Origin: a phage
Strand: one strand, 5' to 3'
Sequence record: PZ386973.1
DNA: 64,000 bases
In this document: one piece after another, positions 32,731-44,212 of the stretch
Position numbering within the stretch: position 1 is the first letter of the stretch
Layout of the letters: every line of letters begins with the position of its first letter
Made by a program: the position numbers and the translations under genes
The notes under the pieces: generated by a model
What the model was told of the DNA's origin: nothing
Seen by the model: the letters and a program-made list of their open reading frames with translations, nothing else
Databases searched by the model: none

Positions 32731-33164
32731 TGGGTACGAACATGATTCGTGTACTACGAGAGTTGATTGAAGATGCTCGTAAACGTGGAGATACTGTATC
32801 GGTTAAGCACCTAAGTACGATTCTAGGTGACTTGCAACGTATTAACAAGGATTGCATAACTAAGCTGGAATTTACTAACTGGCTGAAATCCCAGTTCAAG
32901 GCAATTGAGAATACACAGACTGCTGCTGAAAAAGCAAATGTCGAATATATTCCTGATGATGAATATCTAGATCTTTTAGCAGGTTTAGAGTATGAATACG
33001 CTTTGCAACAGCTGACTGAAACCGAAATTCGTAAATACTTTGCAGAACTAGTTAAATTAAACCCAGGTATTACCAAAGCCCTACTAATGAAAACTATTAA
33101 GGCAGAGTTCCCAGGGCGTTATGATGGTAAAACAACTGCTTTGATTGCTAGTGAATTTTTCTAA
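32730..33164 (+). CDS. hypothetical protein
   Basis: 144-aa ORF. Confidence 0.45.
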   Translation: MGTNMIRVLRELIEDARKRGDTVSVKHLSTILGDLQRINKDCITKLEFTNWLKSQFKAIENTQTAAEKANVEYIPDDEYLDLLAGLEYEYALQQLTETEIRKYFAELVKLNPGITKALLMKTIKAEFPGRYDGKTTALIASEFF

Positions 33165-33172
33165 AAATTCAT

Positions 33173-33201
33173 TTGCTAAATGCTTATAAATTCTGTATAA
33201 T
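33173..33201 (+). promoter_or_regulatory. sigma70-type promoter reading into an ORF-free region
   Basis: TTGCTA-17 nt-TATAAT; no ORF of 60 aa or more for about 900 bp downstream. Confidence 0.5.
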
Positions 33202-34013
33202 ATATTCATAAATTAGAGAACAGCGAGCCGATTACGCTGAGTGCAGAATCCCAACCGGAGCGCATTGAATAGAGTCGGTGGGTTAGTTGTAAAACTAGTA
33301 CACAGGGGGCGGCAATCCCGGTTAGTGGCTAGAACGTGTAAAATGGGGCGTCTGAAACCTCTCCCTTAAACTCTTCTCTAATCTATAAATAGTGGGGTGT
33401 GGAAATCACTTATGTAGTAACACTGCCGTCCTAAGTTAATTGGTAGACTTCTGCACGCGGAGATTATATCTCCAGATGCGGAAAGTGCAGGTTCGAATCC
33501 TGCGGTCGGTAAGAACTGGATAACTGGTGCTTTTAACGTAAAAGCTTCCGAGGTTAGTTGCGCACTGCCTAAACCACGCGGTAGTTGGTTCCAGGCTAAC
33601 CAACCCGTCTGCTGAATAGTTTTATTACGATTTAGCTATGTCCAGGCTAAAGAAGAACTTTAGAAGGTATTCTAGGATAGTGAAGTTCTTTCTCCATATC
33701 GGAGTAGTTTTTCAGGCTATCCACAAAGTGGGAAATGCTGACATGAGAGATGTCACTAATGGTGCACAATAGCACAGGTAATTCGCGATAACTCCTGTTG
33801 AGTAGCAGCAAAAGGCGGGAAGTCATGACCCCAAGCCTAACCGAGTCCTCAATATACCGCAGGACATAACCACTAAGTCACCCTGACTTAAACTGGAAAA
33901 TAATAGACGTTACTGTATTTTGTCTTGAAATACTTAATGAGTGAGACTTATGACTCTCCCGGTATCGTCTGTATTTTTAAGAATTTTTACGAGAGTTCTT
34001 AAAAATACTTAAA

Positions 34014-37720: not shown

Positions 37721-37798
37721 GGTTCTCAAGCTCATATGGTATGAGCACCCGGCTCATAACCGGAAGGTACGTAGGTTCGAATCCTCGGGGAGCCACCA
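37721..37798 (+). tRNA. tRNA with CAT anticodon (Met or Ile), read by eye
   Basis: Acceptor GGTTCTC/GGGAGCC, D-arm GCTC...GAGC, anticodon loop CTCATAA; T-stem weak. Confidence 0.45.
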
Positions 37799-38304: not shown

Positions 38305-38381
38305 GGGGGTGTAATCGAATTGGCATAGGTACTGGACTTAAAATTCAGGTTTTGTGGGTTCGAATCCCACCACCCCTACCA
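38305..38381 (+). tRNA. tRNA, anticodon read as TAA, short variable arm
   Basis: Acceptor GGGGGTG/CACCCCT, T-arm GTGGG-TTCGAAT-CCCAC, anticodon stem CTGGA/TTCAG, encoded CCA; identity needs software. Confidence 0.5.
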
Positions 38382-39884: not shown

Positions 39885-39905
39885 TTTCCAAAAGTTCTGT
39901 ATAAT
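39877..39905 (+). promoter_or_regulatory. sigma70-type promoter upstream of tRNA genes
   Basis: TTGCTT-17 nt-TATAAT. Confidence 0.5.
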
Positions 39906-39953
39906 AATTACATAAATTGAACTGGAGAAGCAACATGACAGAACAAGATAAAT

Positions 39954-40029
39954 CGACCGTTGGCTGAATGGCTTAGGCGAAGGATTGCAAATCCTTTTTA
40001 TGTGAGTTCAAATCTCATGCGGTCGTCCA
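39954..40029 (+). tRNA. tRNA-Cys (anticodon GCA)
   Basis: Acceptor CGACCGT/GCGGTCG, anticodon stem-loop AAGGA-TTGCAAA-TCCTT, T-arm GTGAG-TTCAAAT-CTCAT. Confidence 0.65.
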
Positions 40030-40181
40030 ATTTGCTGAAAGAATTGTTAAATCAATTCAGGCACGCGTAGGAACACTGTCTCCGTAATTGAAAGATGAGA
40101 CACGGTTTGGAGAGGTATGCCGCTACACGCTACGGTGCTAACTCCGTCTAGGTGAAAATCCTAGTCAGCAATATAAATTTA

Positions 40182-40264
40182 GGGTCGTTAGCCAAGCGGT
40201 TTGGCGGTGGACTGTTAATCCATGTCGAAAGACAACGTAGGTTCGAATCCTACACGGCCCGCCA
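40182..40264 (+). tRNA. tRNA with long variable arm; anticodon read as GTT, identity uncertain
   Basis: Acceptor GGGTCGT/ACGGCCC, T-arm GTAGG-TTCGAAT-CCTAC, variable stem-loop GTC-GAAA-GAC. Confidence 0.5.
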
Positions 40265-40366
40265 AATTCTGTGTAGAGTTAAGTAAACCGGTAGCCAACC
40301 AGCTATCATTGCTGACATCGAATTCAGCCACAGATACCATTTTCATTAATAACTGAGGAAACAAGC

Positions 40367-40552
40367 ATGTCCAAGAATGTAATTGCGCAGCTAGAAGTTC
40401 ATCGTGATAGCACTATCAATAATATTGAAGTTGAGAAGAAATACATCGAAGAACTTAAACATGATATACTAGTAAGTCTCAACCGTCTTAATGTACGAAA
40501 AGAGTTTCTTAAAGAACTTAATGCAGCTATTGAAAAACTCAAAGCTGAGTAA
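40367..40552 (+). CDS. hypothetical small coiled-coil protein
   Basis: 61-aa ORF with a GAGGAAACAAGC ribosome-binding site. Confidence 0.35.
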   Translation: MSKNVIAQLEVHRDSTINNIEVEKKYIEELKHDILVSLNRLNVRKEFLKELNAAIEKLKAE

Positions 40553-40561
40553 ATAAATTAT

Positions 40562-40638
40562 GCGACCGGGGCTGGCTTGGTAATGGTACTCCCCTGTCAC
40601 GGGAGAGAATGTGGGTTCAAATCCCATCGGTCGCGCCA
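40562..40638 (+). tRNA. tRNA-Asp (anticodon GTC)
   Basis: Perfect acceptor GCGACCG/CGGTCGC, anticodon stem-loop CTCCC-CTGTCAC-GGGAG. Confidence 0.7.
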
Positions 40639-40655
40639 AATAAGGTAGGTTAGCT

Positions 40656-40808
40656 ATGGAACGTAGGGAGTTTACTCCAGAAGAGATAGAGCAGATAAAA
40701 GAATCTGCTATGAAAAATGCTAGAATATCTCTGTCACTGGAAGGTATCATTATTAGTGACGTAAACTTTGAAAAAATCAAAGCCATAGCTGATGAACTGG
40801 AAAAAGTA
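40656..40808 (+). CDS. hypothetical 50-aa protein with S-x3-E-G motif
   Basis: ATG behind an AAGGTAGG ribosome-binding site; sequence RISLSLEG fits the [S/T]xxxE[G/N] motif of FicA/VbhA-type Fic inhibitors. Confidence 0.3.
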
Positions 40809-40814
40809 ATTTAA

Positions 40815-40890
40815 TACATCCATAGCTCAATGGTTAGAGCTACCGCCTCTTAAGCGGAGGGTTCTAGGTTCAAGTCCTAGTGGGTGTACC
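40815..40890 (+). tRNA. tRNA-Lys (anticodon CTT), read by eye
   Basis: Acceptor ACATCCA/TGGGTGT, D-arm GCTCAATGGTTAGAGC, anticodon loop CTCTTAA, T-arm CTAGG-TTCAAGT-CCTAG. Confidence 0.55.
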
Positions 40891-40917
40891 AAATTAAACT
40901 AGCACGAGAAATATGCT

Positions 40918-41265
40918 ATGATTAATGCTAAAGAAGAGTTGTTACTTGCCCTAAAGAATACTAAGTCTGAAGTTAAGTGTATTAAGATAGAATTCGGTTA
41001 TTATGGGGATAAAGAAGTTTGGGTATTACCCGTAGGTTATACAGAAAAAGATATTGAAGATTTTCTAGATAATCTAGACTTTAAATATGATTCTGGTTTC
41101 GGCGGACAACTGCTTTATGGTAACGTATGGTTTACTGATGGAACTTGGTTAGAACGTGGTGAATATGATGGTTCTGAATGGTGGGAATATAAGACTACAC
41201 CAGCAATCCCAGAAGAATGCCGAACAATTAATGGTGAAGTAGATCGTACTTTACTATTAAATTAA
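40918..41265 (+). CDS. hypothetical protein
   Basis: 115-aa ORF. Confidence 0.45.
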   Translation: MINAKEELLLALKNTKSEVKCIKIEFGYYGDKEVWVLPVGYTEKDIEDFLDNLDFKYDSGFGGQLLYGNVWFTDGTWLERGEYDGSEWWEYKTTPAIPEECRTINGEVDRTLLLN

Positions 41266-41657
41266 CAAAATTTCAGTGCAGAACACGGAGCTAGCAATTC
41301 GGAAGTGCTGACTCATGATAAGCTGCCTATGTACTTGCGAAGCGGTCGTGTCCAAGACTCGGACTCTTGCACTGAAAACAATCAAACATTCTAGCGTGGT
41401 TGATGGGGAAACCAGCTTGGCTAGGGCAGAAGCTCGTTCGATTCGAGTGGAAGAATGGTTCTCGTAAGTCCGCACAAGTGATAACAGGTTCGAGTCCTGT
41501 CTAGAATGACACTATAAAGTTTACTTATTGAGTAGGTTCCGATAGATCGGCGGGTCTATTCTGGCATTTAAGAGAGGTCTCGCAAACTTCTTTGTCAGCC
41601 GTGGGGTTCATAGCCTCCAGGTGGCCTACACAATAAGTAAATTTATTAAAAATTCAT

Positions 41658-41686
41658 TTGCTATTCTGCTTAATTATCTGTATAAT
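41658..41686 (+). promoter_or_regulatory. sigma70-type promoter
   Basis: TTGCTA-17 nt-TATAAT. Confidence 0.5.
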
Positions 41687-41718
41687 ATATTTTATAAAGT
41701 GAAGAGAAGGAAAGCAAA

Positions 41719-41877
41719 ATGAAACACAAGATAGCTCAAGTTTTTATGGCATTATGGTGTATGCCAATAGCTATAACAGCATTTAATCTAGATACTCTTA
41801 CTATAGAAGAAAAATGTATCGGATTAGTTAGCGGCTTTAGTATGCTGGGCTTATCTTTGCTGTGGTTAAAGAAATAA
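41719..41877 (+). CDS. hypothetical small membrane peptide
   Basis: 52-codon ORF with a GGAAAG ribosome-binding site; two hydrophobic segments. Confidence 0.3.
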   Translation: MKHKIAQVFMALWCMPIAITAFNLDTLTIEEKCIGLVSGFSMLGLSLLWLKK

Positions 41878-41881
41878 TATT

Positions 41882-41959
41882 CTCCGTGTAGCTCAGTTTG
41901 GCCAGAGCGTTTCGTTTGGGGCGATAGGGTCGGGGGTTCAAATCCTCCCACGGAGACCA
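41882..41959 (+). tRNA. tRNA-Pro (anticodon TGG)
   Basis: Perfect acceptor CTCCGTG/CACGGAG, D-arm GCTCAGTTTGGCCAGAGC, anticodon loop TTTGGGG. Confidence 0.6.
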
Positions 41960-41965
41960 AACAAT

Positions 41966-42043
41966 TGCGGGTTAGATCTCTGGTAGAGATCGCTAGTCTC
42001 ATAAGCTAGAAAGAGGTAGGTTCGATTCCTGCACCCGCTTCCA
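41966..42043 (+). tRNA. tRNA with CAT anticodon (Met or Ile); 1-72 mismatch
   Basis: Acceptor TGCGGGT/ACCCGCT with T-T at 1-72, anticodon stem-loop CTAGT-CTCATAA-GCTAG, T-arm GTAGG-TTCGATT-CCTGC. Confidence 0.5.
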
Positions 42044-42063
42044 TTTTAATAGAGGATTTCGAA

Positions 42064-42231
42064 ATGAAAGTATTTCGATTAGTAGTAAGTGATAAACGTT
42101 TAGGTAAGAATACATCAAAATCCTTACTCGCTCATTACGGTAAAAATTGGGATGAAGTAATGGTAGAGTTTAGTACTAATCACCCTTACCTGAAAGTTCA
42201 CTCTATTAAAGAAGTATACAATGGTTACTAA
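42064..42231 (+). CDS. hypothetical small protein
   Basis: 55-codon ORF with an AGAGGA ribosome-binding site between two tRNAs. Confidence 0.3.
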   Translation: MKVFRLVVSDKRLGKNTSKSLLAHYGKNWDEVMVEFSTNHPYLKVHSIKEVYNGY

Positions 42232-42232
42232 T

Positions 42233-42311
42233 AGATCGCTAGCTCAATAGGTTTAGTAGCATCCGACTTTTAATCGGAAGGTTCTGGGTTCAAGTCCCAG
42301 GCGATCTACCA
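42233..42311 (+). tRNA. tRNA-Lys (anticodon TTT)
   Basis: Perfect acceptor AGATCGC/GCGATCT, anticodon stem-loop TCCGA-CTTTTAA-TCGGA, T-arm CTGGG-TTCAAGT-CCCAG. Confidence 0.7.
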
Positions 42312-42329
42312 ATTTCAAGAAAAACGCAG

Positions 42330-42358
42330 TTGCTTGATGCTTAATTTCTTGTTATAAT
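42330..42358 (+). promoter_or_regulatory. sigma70-type promoter
   Basis: TTGCTT-17 nt-TATAAT. Confidence 0.5.
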
Positions 42359-42596
42359 ATTTATATAAATTGATGAGGATTTCTCCTCATCATAGTTCAC
42401 TAAGGTATTAGCTCGACCTAGGACTGGCTGCCAAAAAGCACGATCCCTACGATTCGGGAGAAGTTCTAGATTAGTCCACTAGATTCAGCGGCAACTGAAT
42501 AGTGTATCGGGTTTGCGAGATGACGTAGTTCCTTCCGCTCGAAGCGAAGGTGCTGTAGTTACGCCGAGCTAATAGCCTTAGTAAATTAAAGAATTT

Positions 42597-42675
42597 GGGG
42601 GATGGGTCTGCTAGGAGTGGACACCTCGCTTGCACCGAGGACATCAGAACGATTCGAATTCGTTATCCTCCACCA
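42597..42675 (+). tRNA. tRNA-Ala (anticodon TGC)
   Basis: Acceptor GGGGGAT/ATCCTCC, anticodon stem-loop CCTCG-CTTGCAC-CGAGG, T-arm AACGA-TTCGAAT-TCGTT. Confidence 0.6.
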
Positions 42676-42680
42676 AATAC

Positions 42681-42757
42681 GCGTGATTGATGGAATGGGC
42701 ATACATACCGTCCTTAGAAGTCGGGTTTTGAGGGTTCGAATCCCTTGTCACGCACCA
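42681..42757 (+). tRNA. tRNA, anticodon read as TAG, short variable arm
   Basis: Acceptor GCGTGAT/GTCACGC, T-arm GAGGG-TTCGAAT-CCCTT; identity needs software. Confidence 0.5.
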
Positions 42758-42869
42758 AATTTGATGGTCAGAGTAAATTAAACCTACTATCTCGGTTGAG
42801 CTGTTTTAATGGGTTCGAATCCCAGCGAGGCGTAACTGCCTGGCGTGATAGAGGCATCATCTTATTATT

Positions 42870-42960
42870 GGAAGAGCAAATCGAATTGGCGACGAAAACC
42901 GCTTGGAAAGTGGCTGACTGGTAAAACGGCTTGAGAGTTCAAATCTCTTCTCTTCCGCCA
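42870..42960 (+). tRNA. tRNA-Ser (anticodon GGA), long variable arm
   Basis: Perfect acceptor GGAAGAG/CTCTTCC, anticodon loop TTGGAAA, T-arm GAGAG-TTCAAAT-CTCTT. Confidence 0.55.
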
Positions 42961-42972
42961 AACAATTTATAT

Positions 42973-43067
42973 GGTAGGTCAATCCAAAGGCTGGCGCTGG
43001 ACTCCGACTTGAAATCGGTTGATCGTAGTGATACGGTGTAAGGGTTCGATCCCCTTACCTACCTCCA
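42973..43067 (+). tRNA. tRNA-Ser (anticodon TGA), long variable arm
   Basis: Perfect acceptor GGTAGGT/ACCTACC, anticodon loop CTTGAAA, T-arm AAGGG-TTCGATC-CCCTT. Confidence 0.55.
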
Positions 43068-43432
43068 AATCTTGGAATATGCCGGAATTAGTAGACGGGA
43101 CTGCCGAATAGGTTTACTAGGAACATCCACTCCTAGAAATATACCTTAAAGGCGGTTGAGATAAATGGTCTATCTCGTGAAGGTTCAAGTCCTTCTATTC
43201 CTTGATACATCAATGGCTCAAAGTGTAACGGTGCTATTTGATGCTCTTGGAAAGACTTTCCCGACAGGCGTTCGGGGGTAAGCTTCTGAGGCTAGAATAG
43301 AAGAGTTTCTGAGAGCCGCCACAATTGAAAATTCGTACTCGTCTTGAGCTGCGTGCAATAGGAGATAACTTGATTAGTATTCTAGAACATGCTAATTGAG
43401 GATGGTTTCGCTAACCCTGCGAGTTTTCAATT

Positions 43433-43509
43433 GTGGCTATATCATAATTGGTTAATGATCCTGATTGTGAATCAGGCCTATGTGGATTCGAATTCCACTA
43501 GCCACCCCA
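43433..43509 (+). tRNA. tRNA-His (anticodon GTG)
   Basis: Perfect acceptor GTGGCTA/TAGCCAC, anticodon stem-loop CCTGA-TTGTGAA-TCAGG, T-arm GTGGA-TTCGAAT-TCCAC. Confidence 0.7.
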
Positions 43510-43534
43510 AATTAACTTAAATAGGAAATAAAAT

Positions 43535-43732
43535 ATGGCTGATTTCTGCAAACAATGCTCTATTGATATGTGGGGCAGAGATACTGGTGATCTTTCTGGT
43601 TTGATTACAGAAGCCGAAGTTAAAGAAGGTTATGGTGCAGTTGTGATTTGCGAAGGATGCGGAGTTATTCGAGTGGATCATGAAGGCAAACGTTTAGAAG
43701 AGCAGGAAAATTTAGGAGAAACAAATGAGTAA
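43535..43732 (+). CDS. small zinc-ribbon-like protein
   Basis: 65 aa with CKQC...CEGCG pairs. Confidence 0.4.
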   Translation: MADFCKQCSIDMWGRDTGDLSGLITEAEVKEGYGAVVICEGCGVIRVDHEGKRLEEQENLGETNE

Positions 43733-44136: not shown

Positions 44137-44212
44137 GCGGTTAAGCACACGGGTTGTGTCGCAGGCCTTCCAAGCCTCGCTGAGTAGGGTTCGATTCCCT
44201 CTAGCCGCTCCA
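44137..44212 (+). tRNA. tRNA-Gly (anticodon TCC)
   Basis: Acceptor GCGGTTA/TAGCCGC, anticodon loop CTTCCAA, T-arm TAGGG-TTCGATT-CCCTC. Confidence 0.55.

What the first reader, a model, noticed from the sequence alone, without database searches (positions are those of the whole stretch)
40030..43432. Further ORF-free tRNA-like or structured segments inside the tRNA cluster
Segments 40030-40181, 41266-41640, 42380-42596, 42758-42869 and 43068-43432 contain T-loop-like motifs or hairpins but no tRNA that I could complete and no plausible ORF. They may be unusual tRNAs, processing leaders, or small stable RNAs co-transcribed with the tRNAs.
Basis: seen in the sequence. Interest (0 to 1): 0.45.

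Follow-up and report, generated by a model that had tools for sequence, protein, structure and literature searches.

The report
T5-type stable tRNA-like RNA genes
The ORF-free stretches between the tRNA genes of this T5-like phage are genes for small, highly structured and partly tRNA-shaped RNAs; six are the 'stable RNAs of unknown function' already annotated in the T5 and BF23 records, and three more are unannotated elements of the same kind, so the finding is real but mostly not new.

Summary
The window is the tRNA cluster of a Tequintavirus (T5/BF23-like phage). No tool finds a canonical tRNA or a conserved ORF in any of the five segments, and the T-loop motifs and hairpins are real.

Three segments hold six RNAs already annotated in the curated T5 st0 and BF23 records:
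- RNA2 and RNAIV lie in 41266-41640.
- RNA 2H lies in 42380-42596.
- RNA1, RNAI and RNAIII lie in 43068-43432.

They are 96-100% identical to the BF23 features, which carry the notes 'stable' or 'tRNA-like RNA with unknown functions'.

Three elements are unannotated in every record I inspected:
- E1 (40032-40171) is a cloverleaf-like RNA. It also occurs in Sugarlandvirus and in unrelated Mydovirus myophages.
- E4 (42762-42859) carries a T-loop hairpin.
- E2a (41271-41377) is nearly invariant.

Compensatory base changes across genera support the folds of E1, RNA1, RNA2, RNA 2H, RNAIV, RNAI and E4.

E1, RNA1 and RNA2 are tRNA chassis (acceptor, D and T arms) in which a conserved 40-63-nt structured insert replaces the anticodon loop. 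They cannot decode.

They are most likely cut from polycistronic tRNA precursors by host tRNA-processing enzymes. Their function remains unknown. The finding is mostly already known, with E1, E4 and E2a as new members of a known kind.

The parts
40032..40171 (+). E1, an unannotated tRNA-like RNA. Its parts are a 7-bp acceptor-like stem (40032-38 with 40165-71), a D-like hairpin (40041-58), a 10-bp long arm (40060-70 with 40130-39) enclosing two hairpins, and a T arm (40148-64). It starts 2 nt after the CCA of tRNA-Cys and ends 10 nt before tRNA-Asn.
   Evidence: On 9 sequences from Tequintavirus, Sugarlandvirus, phage KKP_3711 and Mydovirus, 37 pairs are 98.8% paired and 14 pairs show compensatory change. 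Slid controls give 27-43% paired and at most 2 such pairs. ARAGORN calls it a tRNA with a 63-nt insert only at a relaxed threshold.
40267..40339 (+). Ortholog of BF23 RNA3 ('tRNA-like RNA with unknown functions'). It ends in ACCA. It lies inside the finding's envelope but outside the five listed sub-segments.
   Evidence: 98.6% identical to the BF23 rna3 feature. Folding z-score -3.0.
41271..41377 (+). E2a, an unannotated and nearly invariant non-coding element. The predicted fold is an 11-bp closing stem with a branched interior.
   Evidence: 97-99% identical even in Epseptimavirus, while the adjacent ORF is about 88% identical among Tequintavirus genomes. There is no variation with which to test the fold. 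Folding z-score is only -1.4. It is not annotated in T5 or BF23.
41387..41511 (+). RNA2, annotated in T5 and BF23 as a 'tRNA-like RNA with unknown functions'. It has an 8-bp acceptor stem, a D arm, a 5-bp anticodon-like stem enclosing about 60 nt that includes a second T-like hairpin, and a T arm ACAGG-UUCGAGU-CCUGU. It has no CCA.
   Evidence: 96.8% identical to BF23 rna2. 16 of 34 predicted pairs show compensatory change. The scaffold passes default ARAGORN once the insert is replaced by a 7-nt loop.
41530..41632 (+). RNAIV, annotated in T5 and BF23 as a 'stable RNA with unknown functions'. It is a four-way junction. The precursor duplex extends to 41522-41640.
   Evidence: 96% identical to BF23 rnaIV. 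Folding z-score -4.5. 10 of 44 predicted pairs show compensatory change.
41639..41702 (+). Early promoter P13a (TTGCTA-17-TATAAAT-type), which starts the next transcription unit.
   Evidence: 98% identical to the BF23 P13a feature. It is the best promoter-like site in the scan, at 41658-41686.
42311..42392 (+). Promoter P13b (42311-42378), followed by a 9-bp hairpin (42371-42392) at the 5' end of the transcript.
   Evidence: 94% identical to the BF23 P13b feature. The hairpin is visible in the sequence and in the terminator-like scan.
42406..42577 (+). RNA 2H, annotated in T5 and BF23 as a 'stable RNA with unknown functions'. It is a multi-branch RNA closed by a duplex of about 22 bp that extends to roughly 42394-42588.
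   Evidence: 98.3% identical to BF23 rna2H. 19 of 45 predicted pairs show compensatory change in sequences from Markadamsvirinae, Hongcheonvirus and Sugarlandvirus. Folding z-score -2.8.
42762..42859 (+). E4, an unannotated structured RNA. P1 is 42762-66 with 42855-59. P2 is 42783-92 with 42846-54. The T-loop hairpin P3 is 42810-24. Hairpin P4 is 42825-44. It always directly follows tRNA-Leu(UAG) and precedes tRNA-Ser.
   Evidence: It is conserved in Hongcheonvirus and Sugarlandvirus. Compensatory changes occur at 3 pairs of P2b, 2 of P3 and 1 of P4. BF23 leaves this 112-nt gap unannotated. T5 has an HNH endonuclease gene there instead.
43071..43214 (+). RNA1, annotated in T5 and BF23 as a 'tRNA-like RNA with unknown functions'. 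It is a tRNA-Leu-type chassis: U8-G9, D arm CCG-GAAUUAGUAGA-CGG, a long variable arm and T arm GAAGG-UUCAAGU-CCUUC. An insert of about 45 nt replaces the anticodon loop, with an invariant apical loop ACAUCCAC. It has no CCA.
   Evidence: 96.5% identical to BF23 rna1. 34 pairs are 96.6% paired and 16 show compensatory change on 14 sequences. It is closest to the type-II tRNA-Leu genes of T5 and Sugarlandvirus.
43215..43321 (+). RNAI, annotated in T5 and BF23 as a 'stable RNA with unknown functions'. It is 107 nt and rod-like. The 5' GGCUC pairs with GAGCC and is followed by G-CCA at the 3' end.
   Evidence: 99% identical to BF23 rnaI. The terminal stem and the apical hairpin covary. N-CCA is kept in 10 of 11 divergent homologs.
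43326..43431 (+). RNAIII, annotated in T5 and BF23 as a 'stable RNA with unknown functions'. It has a 12-bp closing stem and three hairpins, and abuts tRNA-His.
   Evidence: 100% identical to BF23 rnaIII. Folding z-score -2.85. Only 5 near-identical variants were found, so the fold cannot be tested by covariation.

Best explanation
The five segments are genes for non-coding, highly structured small RNAs that form part of the phage's tRNA operons.

Transcription and processing:
- They are transcribed from early sigma-70 promoters (P13a, P13b and upstream ones) in the same polycistronic precursors as the tRNAs.
- They lie head-to-tail with the tRNAs, 0-20 nt apart, and are cut out to give stable RNAs.
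- Three of them (E1, RNA2, RNA1) are tRNA chassis. They keep a 7-8-bp acceptor-like stem stacked on a 5-bp T arm, plus a D arm.
- In these three, a conserved 40-63-nt structured insert replaces the anticodon loop. They cannot read codons.
- The chassis most likely serves to recruit RNase P and the 3'-trimming enzymes and to protect the RNA. The insert would be the working part. This is a natural counterpart of the engineered 'tRNA scaffold'.
- RNAI is a rod with tRNA-like ends (GGCUC/GAGCC-G-CCA).
- RNAIV and RNA 2H have long terminal duplexes. Their annotated ends lie opposite each other with a 2-3-nt 3' overhang, which fits RNase III cleavage.

Shown here: orthology to the annotated T5/BF23 RNAs; the conserved folds; the absence of an anticodon loop and of a coding frame; and the spread across genera, and for E1 across phage families.

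Inferred: the processing enzymes and any trans-acting role.

My preferred guess for function is tRNA mimicry that titrates or blocks a host tRNA-binding factor, for example a tRNA-directed defence nuclease. It is only a guess, at about 0.2.
For: Prior annotation:
- The T5 st0 record annotates rna2, RNAIV, RNA2H, RNA1, RNAI and RNAIII in these gaps.
- The BF23 tRNA-region record gives the same, with the notes 'stable RNA' or 'tRNA-like RNA with unknown functions'.
- Those features map to the window at 96-100% identity.

Folds kept through compensatory change:
- E1: 14 of 37 pairs, 98.8% paired, against 27-43% in slid controls.
- RNA1: 16 of 34 pairs.
- RNA2: 16 of 34.
- RNA 2H: 19 of 45.
- RNAIV: 10 of 44.
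- RNAI: 6 of 20.
- E4: 6 pairs.

tRNA chassis:
- The RNA1 and RNA2 scaffolds pass as tRNAs once the insert is replaced by a 7-nt loop.

Conservation and context:
- The RNAs are as conserved as the tRNAs and usually more conserved than the neighbouring small ORFs.
- No conserved ORF was found.
- No internal promoter or terminator exceeds chance, apart from P13a and P13b.
- E1 occurs in tRNA clusters of Sugarlandvirus and of Vequintavirinae/Mydovirus.
Against: - No expression or end-mapping data were available here. 'Stable RNA' rests on the depositors' annotation.
- E1, E4 and E2a have never been shown to accumulate as RNAs.
- The thermodynamic z-scores of RNA2, E4, RNAI and E2a are unremarkable, from -0.6 to -1.4.
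- The covariation evidence comes from few independent clades: three for E1 and three for E4.
- E2a and RNAIII show too little variation to test.
- No target was found for the conserved loops. The complement of the RNA1 loop occurs in the window at chance level only.
- The T5 tRNA region (del-1) can be deleted in the laboratory (PMC12483538), so any function is conditional.
Confidence: 0.8

Rival explanations
1. The elements are decayed tRNA gene duplicates or spacers with no function of their own. On this reading they are kept only because they lie inside tRNA operons, and their stems merely help processing of the neighbouring tRNAs in cis.
For: - The RNA1 scaffold is closest to the type-II tRNA-Leu genes.
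- RNA3 and RNA2 look like degraded tRNAs. One GenBank record annotates part of the RNA2 homolog as tRNA-Arg(ccg).
- The slots are polymorphic. E1 is absent from T5, BF23 and AKFV33, and E4 is absent from T5.
- The tRNA region is dispensable in the laboratory.
Against: - Sequence identity equals that of the tRNAs and exceeds that of the flanking ORFs.
- The inserts, not only the chassis, carry invariant loops and covarying stems across genera.
- E1 is kept in an unrelated myovirus lineage with fully compensated stems.
- Neutral relics would not keep 97-99% paired cells.
Confidence: 0.12
2. E1, RNA1 and RNA2 are functional tRNAs with short introns that are spliced to give decoding tRNAs, for example tRNA-Leu(UAA) from RNA1.
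For: At 90% threshold it calls E1 and RNA2 as intron-containing tRNAs.
Against: - The residues that would form the anticodon loop after removal differ between homologs: CUUAAAG, UCAUAAA, CGAAAAC, UCGACGG (alignment A5). No anticodon is conserved.
- In contrast, the 'intron' apical loop is invariant.
- Inserts of 40-63 nt are too short for group I introns, the only tRNA introns known in bacteria and phages (established knowledge).
- RNA1 and RNA2 lack an encoded CCA, unlike the phage's tRNAs.
- The BF23 depositors annotate RNA1 as a 144-nt species.
Confidence: 0.03
3. The segments encode small proteins, as some GenBank records annotate ('hypothetical protein' over RNAI in EscoHU1 and DU_PP_V). 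A variant of this idea is a 12-codon micro-ORF inside E1 (40117-40155).
For: - ORFs of 38-72 aa exist in the segments.
- CDS features overlap the homologous stretches in several records.
- The E1 micro-ORF, preceded by a GAGG motif, has the same length and stop codon in Tequintavirus and Mydovirus (read from alignment A3).
Against: - The 72-, 57- and 50-aa ORFs are broken in 40-47% of near-identical relatives. Control ORFs are open in all relatives.
- Homologs differ by indels that are not multiples of three.
- The substitutions in E1 are the compensatory changes of its stems, and 19 nt of the micro-ORF are invariant at the nucleotide level.
- The GAGG motif abuts the AUG with no spacer.
Confidence: 0.03

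Closest known systems
Stable and tRNA-like RNAs of phages T5 and BF23 (RNAI, RNAIII, RNAIV, RNA 2H; RNA1, RNA2, RNA3), annotated in AY692264 and NC_042564
   Same: Six of the nine elements are the orthologs. They have the same order, the same neighbours and 96-100% identity. E1, E4 and E2a share the setting and the design: a closed multi-branch fold, T-loop hairpins, and tight packing between tRNAs.
   Different: E1 lies in a slot that T5 and BF23 fill with a T5orf172-domain (putative nuclease) ORF, so it is absent from both model phages. E4 and E2a are present in BF23 but unannotated there. None of the three has been shown to accumulate as an RNA.
Phage T4 species 1 and species 2 RNAs (rnaC, rnaD), small stable RNAs at the end of the T4 tRNA cluster
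   Same: The concept is the same. They are non-coding RNAs of 119-139 nt, co-located with phage tRNAs, and stable. That their function is still unknown is from my own knowledge. rnaC carries a canonical T arm next to its closing stem.
   Different: No sequence homology is detectable beyond the T-arm motif (best nhmmer E = 0.002, on the T arm only). The phage family is different.
Engineered 'tRNA scaffold' for recombinant RNA expression (Ponchon and Dardel; from my own knowledge, not checked here)
   Same: A cargo RNA is inserted into the anticodon stem of a tRNA. Acceptor, D and T arms then drive processing and protect the RNA. E1, RNA1 and RNA2 have exactly this layout.
   Different: These are natural and conserved, and the role of the cargo is unknown. 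RNA1 and RNA2 lack CCA and carry 3' extensions.
Bacterial and phage Y-RNA-like tRNA mimics (YrlA) and other tRNA-like structures (from my own knowledge)
   Same: They are non-coding RNAs that imitate the tRNA elbow (T and D arms) without decoding. Some are encoded by phages.
   Different: No Rfam family other than tRNA matches the segments even at E<=10. No Ro-binding stem motif was noticed, but it was not specifically searched for.
Canonical and intron-containing tRNAs
   Same: Acceptor, D and T arms have tRNA-like spacing. The RNA1 D arm is of tRNA-Leu type.
   Different: There is no 7-nt anticodon loop, no conserved anticodon and no Rfam tRNA hit.

Membership tests
T5/BF23 stable and tRNA-like RNAs | Sequence orthology and synteny with the annotated misc_RNA features | tested here: met
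   RNA2, RNAIV, RNA 2H, RNA1, RNAI and RNAIII (and RNA3) map at 96-100% identity, in the same order between the same tRNAs. E1, E4 and E2a have no annotated counterpart.
T5/BF23 stable and tRNA-like RNAs | Accumulation as a discrete stable RNA in infected cells | not testable with these tools
   This rests on the depositors' notes ('stable RNA with unknown functions'). No expression data were available.
T5/BF23 stable and tRNA-like RNAs | Conserved secondary structure | tested here: met
   Compensatory changes were found in E1, RNA1, RNA2, RNA 2H, RNAIV, RNAI and E4. The test is inconclusive for E2a and RNAIII because they show too little variation.
Canonical tRNA (Rfam RF00005) | Score at or above the gathering threshold, or an ARAGORN default call | tested here: not met
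   No hit in any of the five segments.
Canonical tRNA (Rfam RF00005) | A 7-nt anticodon loop on a 5-bp stem | tested here: not met
   In E1, RNA1 and RNA2 the loop is replaced by structured inserts of 40-63 nt.
Intron-containing tRNA | A conserved anticodon loop once the insert is removed | tested here: not met
   The would-be loop residues differ between homologs, while the insert's apical loop is invariant (alignment A5).
Intron-containing tRNA | An intron of a known self-splicing or enzyme-spliced class | tested here: inconclusive
   There was no Rfam intron hit, and the inserts are too short for group I introns. A bulge-helix-bulge motif was not systematically searched for.
tmRNA | A tRNA-like domain plus a tag reading frame | tested here: not met
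   ARAGORN reported only tRNA genes and no tmRNA in the window.
Protein-coding gene | A reading frame kept open in relatives | tested here: not met
   The main ORFs are interrupted in 40-47% of close relatives, against 0% for control ORFs. The test is uninformative for four shorter ORFs in segments 4 and 5, which stay open in most or all close relatives.
T4 rnaC/rnaD | Sequence homology | tested here: not met
   nhmmer profiles of all nine elements against the T4 tRNA region find only T-arm-level similarity.

The most novel reading that the evidence does not exclude
E1, RNA1 and RNA2 are natural 'tRNA-scaffolded' effector RNAs.

- The tRNA chassis gets them processed and stabilised.
- The conserved cargo acts in trans on a host factor. 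Candidate cargo features are the invariant RNA1 loop ACAUCCAC and the purine-rich GGAGAGG loop in E1's near-invariant core.
- The most plausible role is as a decoy or inhibitor of a tRNA-directed defence nuclease, or of a ribosomal or tRNA-handling component.
- Such modules move horizontally between tRNA clusters of unrelated phages, as E1 appears to have done between T5-like siphoviruses and Mydovirus myoviruses.
Probability: 0.2. Interest if true: 0.7.

Novelty: new member of a known kind. Interest (0 to 1): 0.3.

Why it matters
- Present-day annotation pipelines ignore them. Of the records inspected, only T5 st0 and the BF23 tRNA-region record mark them. Several others place spurious 'hypothetical proteins' or a false tRNA over them.
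- The T5 tRNA region has recently become a focus of defence and counter-defence work: a T5 tRNA neutralising PARIS (PMC11464382), T5 tRNA-Tyr counteracting retron Eco7 (as cited in PMC10644984 and PMC11464382), and DRT9 escape deletions in the del-1 region (PMC12483538). tRNA-shaped RNAs without an anticodon are therefore obvious untested candidates.
- What this analysis adds is limited. It gives a shared design for three of them (a tRNA chassis with a conserved insert). It also gives covariation-supported folds, two or three unannotated members, and the presence of E1 in an unrelated phage family.

Tried and rejected
- Rfam at E<=10 over 39900-43600 gave only tRNAs, a sub-threshold tRNA-Sec hit on the tRNA-Ser genes, and noise.
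- A 14-mer scan of IMG/VR for E4 (AATTTGATGGTCAG) was non-specific. It produced about 120 mostly irrelevant loci and only four real ones.
- A 26-nt E1 core pattern found five phage-like metagenome contigs, all Tequintavirus or Sugarlandvirus type, and nothing in 185,579 bacterial and archaeal genomes. No new clades and no cellular homolog were found.
- A search for targets complementary to the invariant RNA1 loop within the window was at chance level.
- Profiles of the nine elements do not hit each other, so they are not detectable paralogs. They also do not hit the T4 rnaC/rnaD region.
- The spliced-tRNA reading was rejected because the anticodon-loop residues are not conserved.
- The coding reading was rejected.
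- Literature searches found no paper in the held library that discusses these RNAs. The older primary papers are not in the library, so the prior art is cited from the GenBank annotations.
- MAFFT misaligned parts of E1 and E4. E1 was realigned with flanks. E4 was parsed by hand.
- No covariance models were built.

Full report
**What the window is.** The region 40030-43432 is 92-98% identical to many Tequintavirus genomes (T5-like phages of Escherichia and Salmonella). It lies in their tRNA cluster. ARAGORN finds 22 tRNAs in the window and Rfam finds 22 tRNA matches at gathering score. None of them lies in the five segments of the finding. A permissive Rfam scan of 39900-43600 (E<=10) adds only sub-threshold tRNA-Sec hits on two tRNA-Ser genes and some noise.

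**Observation check.**
- The T-loop motif GGTTCRANYCC occurs 22 times in the window against 0.31 expected. Three copies lie in the segments and outside tRNAs, at 41487, 42812 and 43182.
- The longest ORFs inside the segments (72, 57 and 50 aa) are interrupted in 40-47% of near-identical relatives. Three neighbouring genuine small ORFs are open in every relative.
- Four shorter ORFs in segments 4 and 5 stay open in most or all close relatives, so the ORF test is decisive only for segments 2 and 3.

**What is already known.** The T5 st0 record AY692264 annotates misc_RNA features exactly in three of these gaps:
- rna2 and RNAIV lie after the ORF homologous to 40918-41265.
- RNA2H lies after promoter P13b.
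- RNA1, RNAI and RNAIII lie directly upstream of tRNA-His.

The curated BF23 tRNA-region record NC_042564 gives the same features.

Mapping the BF23 features onto the window gives these coordinates, at 96-100% identity:

| Feature | Window coordinates |
|---|---|
| RNA3 | 40267-40339 |
| RNA2 | 41387-41511 |
| RNAIV | 41530-41632 |
| Promoter P13a | 41639-41702 |
| Promoter P13b | 42311-42378 |
| RNA 2H | 42406-42577 |
| RNA1 | 43071-43214 |
| RNAI | 43215-43321 |
| RNAIII | 43326-43431 |

Most other GenBank records leave these stretches blank, or place 'hypothetical protein' CDS or a false tRNA on them.

**What is not annotated in any record inspected.** Three elements remain.
- *E1 (segment 40030-40181).* It is absent from T5 and BF23, where the Cys-Asn gap holds a 172-aa ORF with a T5orf172/MUG113 domain. 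It is also absent from AKFV33, where the two tRNAs are 6 nt apart. It is present in 220 phage records.
- *E4 (segment 42758-42869).* It is present but unannotated in BF23. T5 has an HNH endonuclease gene in its place.
- *E2a (41266-41386).* It is present in T5 and BF23 but unannotated there.

**Structure of E1.** Homologs occur in several lineages:
- Sugarlandvirus, between tRNA-Asn and tRNA-Cys.
- Enterobacter phage KKP_3711.
- Unexpectedly, the tRNA clusters of Mydovirus (Vequintavirinae) myophages, between two tRNA-Ser genes.

I tested a cloverleaf-like model on nine sequences. The model has a 7-bp acceptor-like stem, a D-like hairpin, a 10-bp arm that branches into two hairpins, a single-stranded variable stretch, and a 5-bp T arm with a 7-nt loop. 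Cells are 98.8% paired and 14 of 37 pairs show compensatory changes. Sliding the partners gives 27-43% paired and at most 2 such pairs. E1 was found only in phage contigs, not in 185,579 bacterial and archaeal genomes.

**Structure of the annotated RNAs.**
- *RNA1.* Cells are 96.6% paired and 16 of 34 pairs are compensated across 14 sequences from at least four lineages.
  - Its 5' part reads U8-G9, CCG-GAAUUAGUAGA-CGG, the D arm typical of type-II tRNA-Leu.
  - Its scaffold aligns best to the long-arm tRNA-Leu genes of T5 and Sugarlandvirus.
- *RNA2.* 16 of 34 predicted pairs are compensated. Its insert contains a second T-like hairpin.
- *RNA 2H.* 19 of 45 pairs are compensated. It has a closing duplex of about 22 bp.
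- *RNAIV.* 10 of 44 pairs are compensated, and the folding z-score is -4.5.
- *RNAI.* The terminal stem covaries (GGCUC/GAGCC against GGCCC/GGGCC), as does the apical hairpin. N-CCA at the 3' end is kept in 10 of 11 homologs.
- *E4.* It has four helices. Compensated pairs lie in P2b (3), the T-loop hairpin P3 (2) and P4 (1), but only three clades are available.
- *E2a and RNAIII.* They vary too little to test. E2a is 97-99% identical even where the adjacent ORF is about 88% identical.
- *Overall.* The RNAs are conserved like the tRNAs and usually more than the small ORFs between them.

**A common design.**
- With introns allowed, ARAGORN at its default threshold calls RNA1 a tRNA-Leu with a 40-nt insert.
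- At 90% threshold it also calls E1 (63-nt insert) and RNA2 (48-nt insert).
- Replacing the insert with a 7-nt loop makes the RNA1 and RNA2 scaffolds pass as ordinary tRNAs.
- These three are therefore tRNA chassis whose anticodon loop is replaced by a structured, conserved insert.
- They are not spliced tRNAs. The residues that would become the anticodon loop differ between homologs, while the insert's apical loop (ACAUCCAC in RNA1) is invariant.
- RNA1 and RNA2 also lack the CCA that the phage's tRNAs encode.

**How it most likely works.** The following is inference.
- The run from P13b to tRNA-His contains, in order, RNA 2H, tRNA-Ala, tRNA-Leu, E4, two tRNA-Ser, RNA1, RNAI, RNAIII and tRNA-His. 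Spacers are 0-20 nt, and no internal promoter or terminator exceeds chance.
- This is the layout of a polycistronic tRNA precursor.
- Acceptor plus T-arm stacks of 12-13 bp are what RNase P recognises (established knowledge). They would define the 5' ends of E1, RNA1, RNA2 and RNAI.
- The annotated ends of RNA 2H and RNAIV lie opposite each other inside long duplexes with a 2-3-nt 3' overhang, as RNase III would leave.
- The chassis or closing stems give stability, and the conserved inserts are the candidates for function.
- No target was found. The complement of the RNA1 loop occurs in the window only at chance level.
- The elements are not detectable paralogs of each other.
- The T5 tRNA region tolerates deletions in the laboratory (PMC12483538), so any role is conditional.

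**Comparison with known systems.**
- The closest analogues outside T5 are the T4 species 1 and 2 RNAs (rnaC, rnaD). They are also stable tRNA-cluster RNAs, and as far as I know their function is still unknown. rnaC has a T arm, but no homology is detectable.
- The layout of E1, RNA1 and RNA2 matches the engineered tRNA scaffold used to express recombinant RNAs (my own knowledge).

**Verdict.** Six of the nine elements are already annotated. E1, E4 and probably E2a are new members of the same kind. Function remains unknown. Interest is modest (0.3). It would rise if the tRNA-mimic or counter-defence idea were shown.

Noticed in passing
window 33215-34013: Ortholog (93.5% identical) of BF23 'RNAX', a 784-nt 'stable RNA with unknown functions'. 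It runs from promoter P16-17 (33153-33227) to tRNA-Arg. It contains a tRNA-like stretch at 33424-33512 (Rfam tRNA 42 bits; ARAGORN only at a relaxed threshold).
   Followed up: partly
window 42870-42960, 42977-43067, 44137-44212, 37721-37798: Default ARAGORN misses several tRNA genes that relatives annotate: tRNA-Ser(GGA), tRNA-Ser(UGA), tRNA-Gly(UCC) and a CAU tRNA. They appear at -ps80. At the two Ser genes Rfam gives only sub-threshold tRNA-Sec hits.
   Followed up: partly
window 42681-42757 and 38305-38381: Both tRNA-Leu genes (UAG and UAA) are only 77 nt and lack the long variable arm expected of bacterial-type tRNA-Leu. T5 has an 85-nt tRNA-Leu at the position of the UAG gene. The BF23 record notes that a CUA-anticodon version of this short tRNA is an effective amber suppressor.
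   Followed up: no
window 40030-40181 and 42758-42869, compared with L003/L004/L044/L001: The inter-tRNA slots are polymorphic. The Cys-Asn gap holds E1 here, a T5orf172/MUG113-domain (putative nuclease) ORF in T5 and BF23, and nothing in AKFV33. The Leu-Ser gap holds E4 here and in BF23, but an HNH endonuclease gene in T5.
   Followed up: partly
window 40117-40155 (inside E1): A 12-codon frame (AUG CCG CUA CAC GCU ACG GUG CUA ACU CCG UCU AGG UGA), directly preceded by GGAGAGGU, has the same length and stop codon in the Mydovirus copies. The differences between clades are the compensatory changes of the RNA stems, so it is probably coincidental.
   Followed up: partly
L062 1253-1322, L005 6146-6325, L006 6110-6286, L063 7097-7303: Public records mis-annotate these RNAs. 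In Enterobacter phage KKP_3711 part of the RNA2 homolog is annotated as tRNA-Arg(ccg). In EscoHU1, DU_PP_V and AKM_HA2021_32, 'hypothetical protein' CDS are laid over the RNA1/RNAI homologs.
   Followed up: no
window 43090-43094: The D loop of RNA1 in this window reads AAUUAGUAGA. Twelve of the 13 aligned relatives have a G at the third-from-last U-A-G position (for example AAUUGGUAGA), so the position equivalent to G18 of tRNA is changed to A in this phage.
   Followed up: no
L018 4365-4519 and L054: One IMG/VR Tequintavirus genome carries an E1 copy whose 5' third is replaced by unrelated sequence, while the 3' 100 nt are intact. This suggests recombination inside the element.
   Followed up: no
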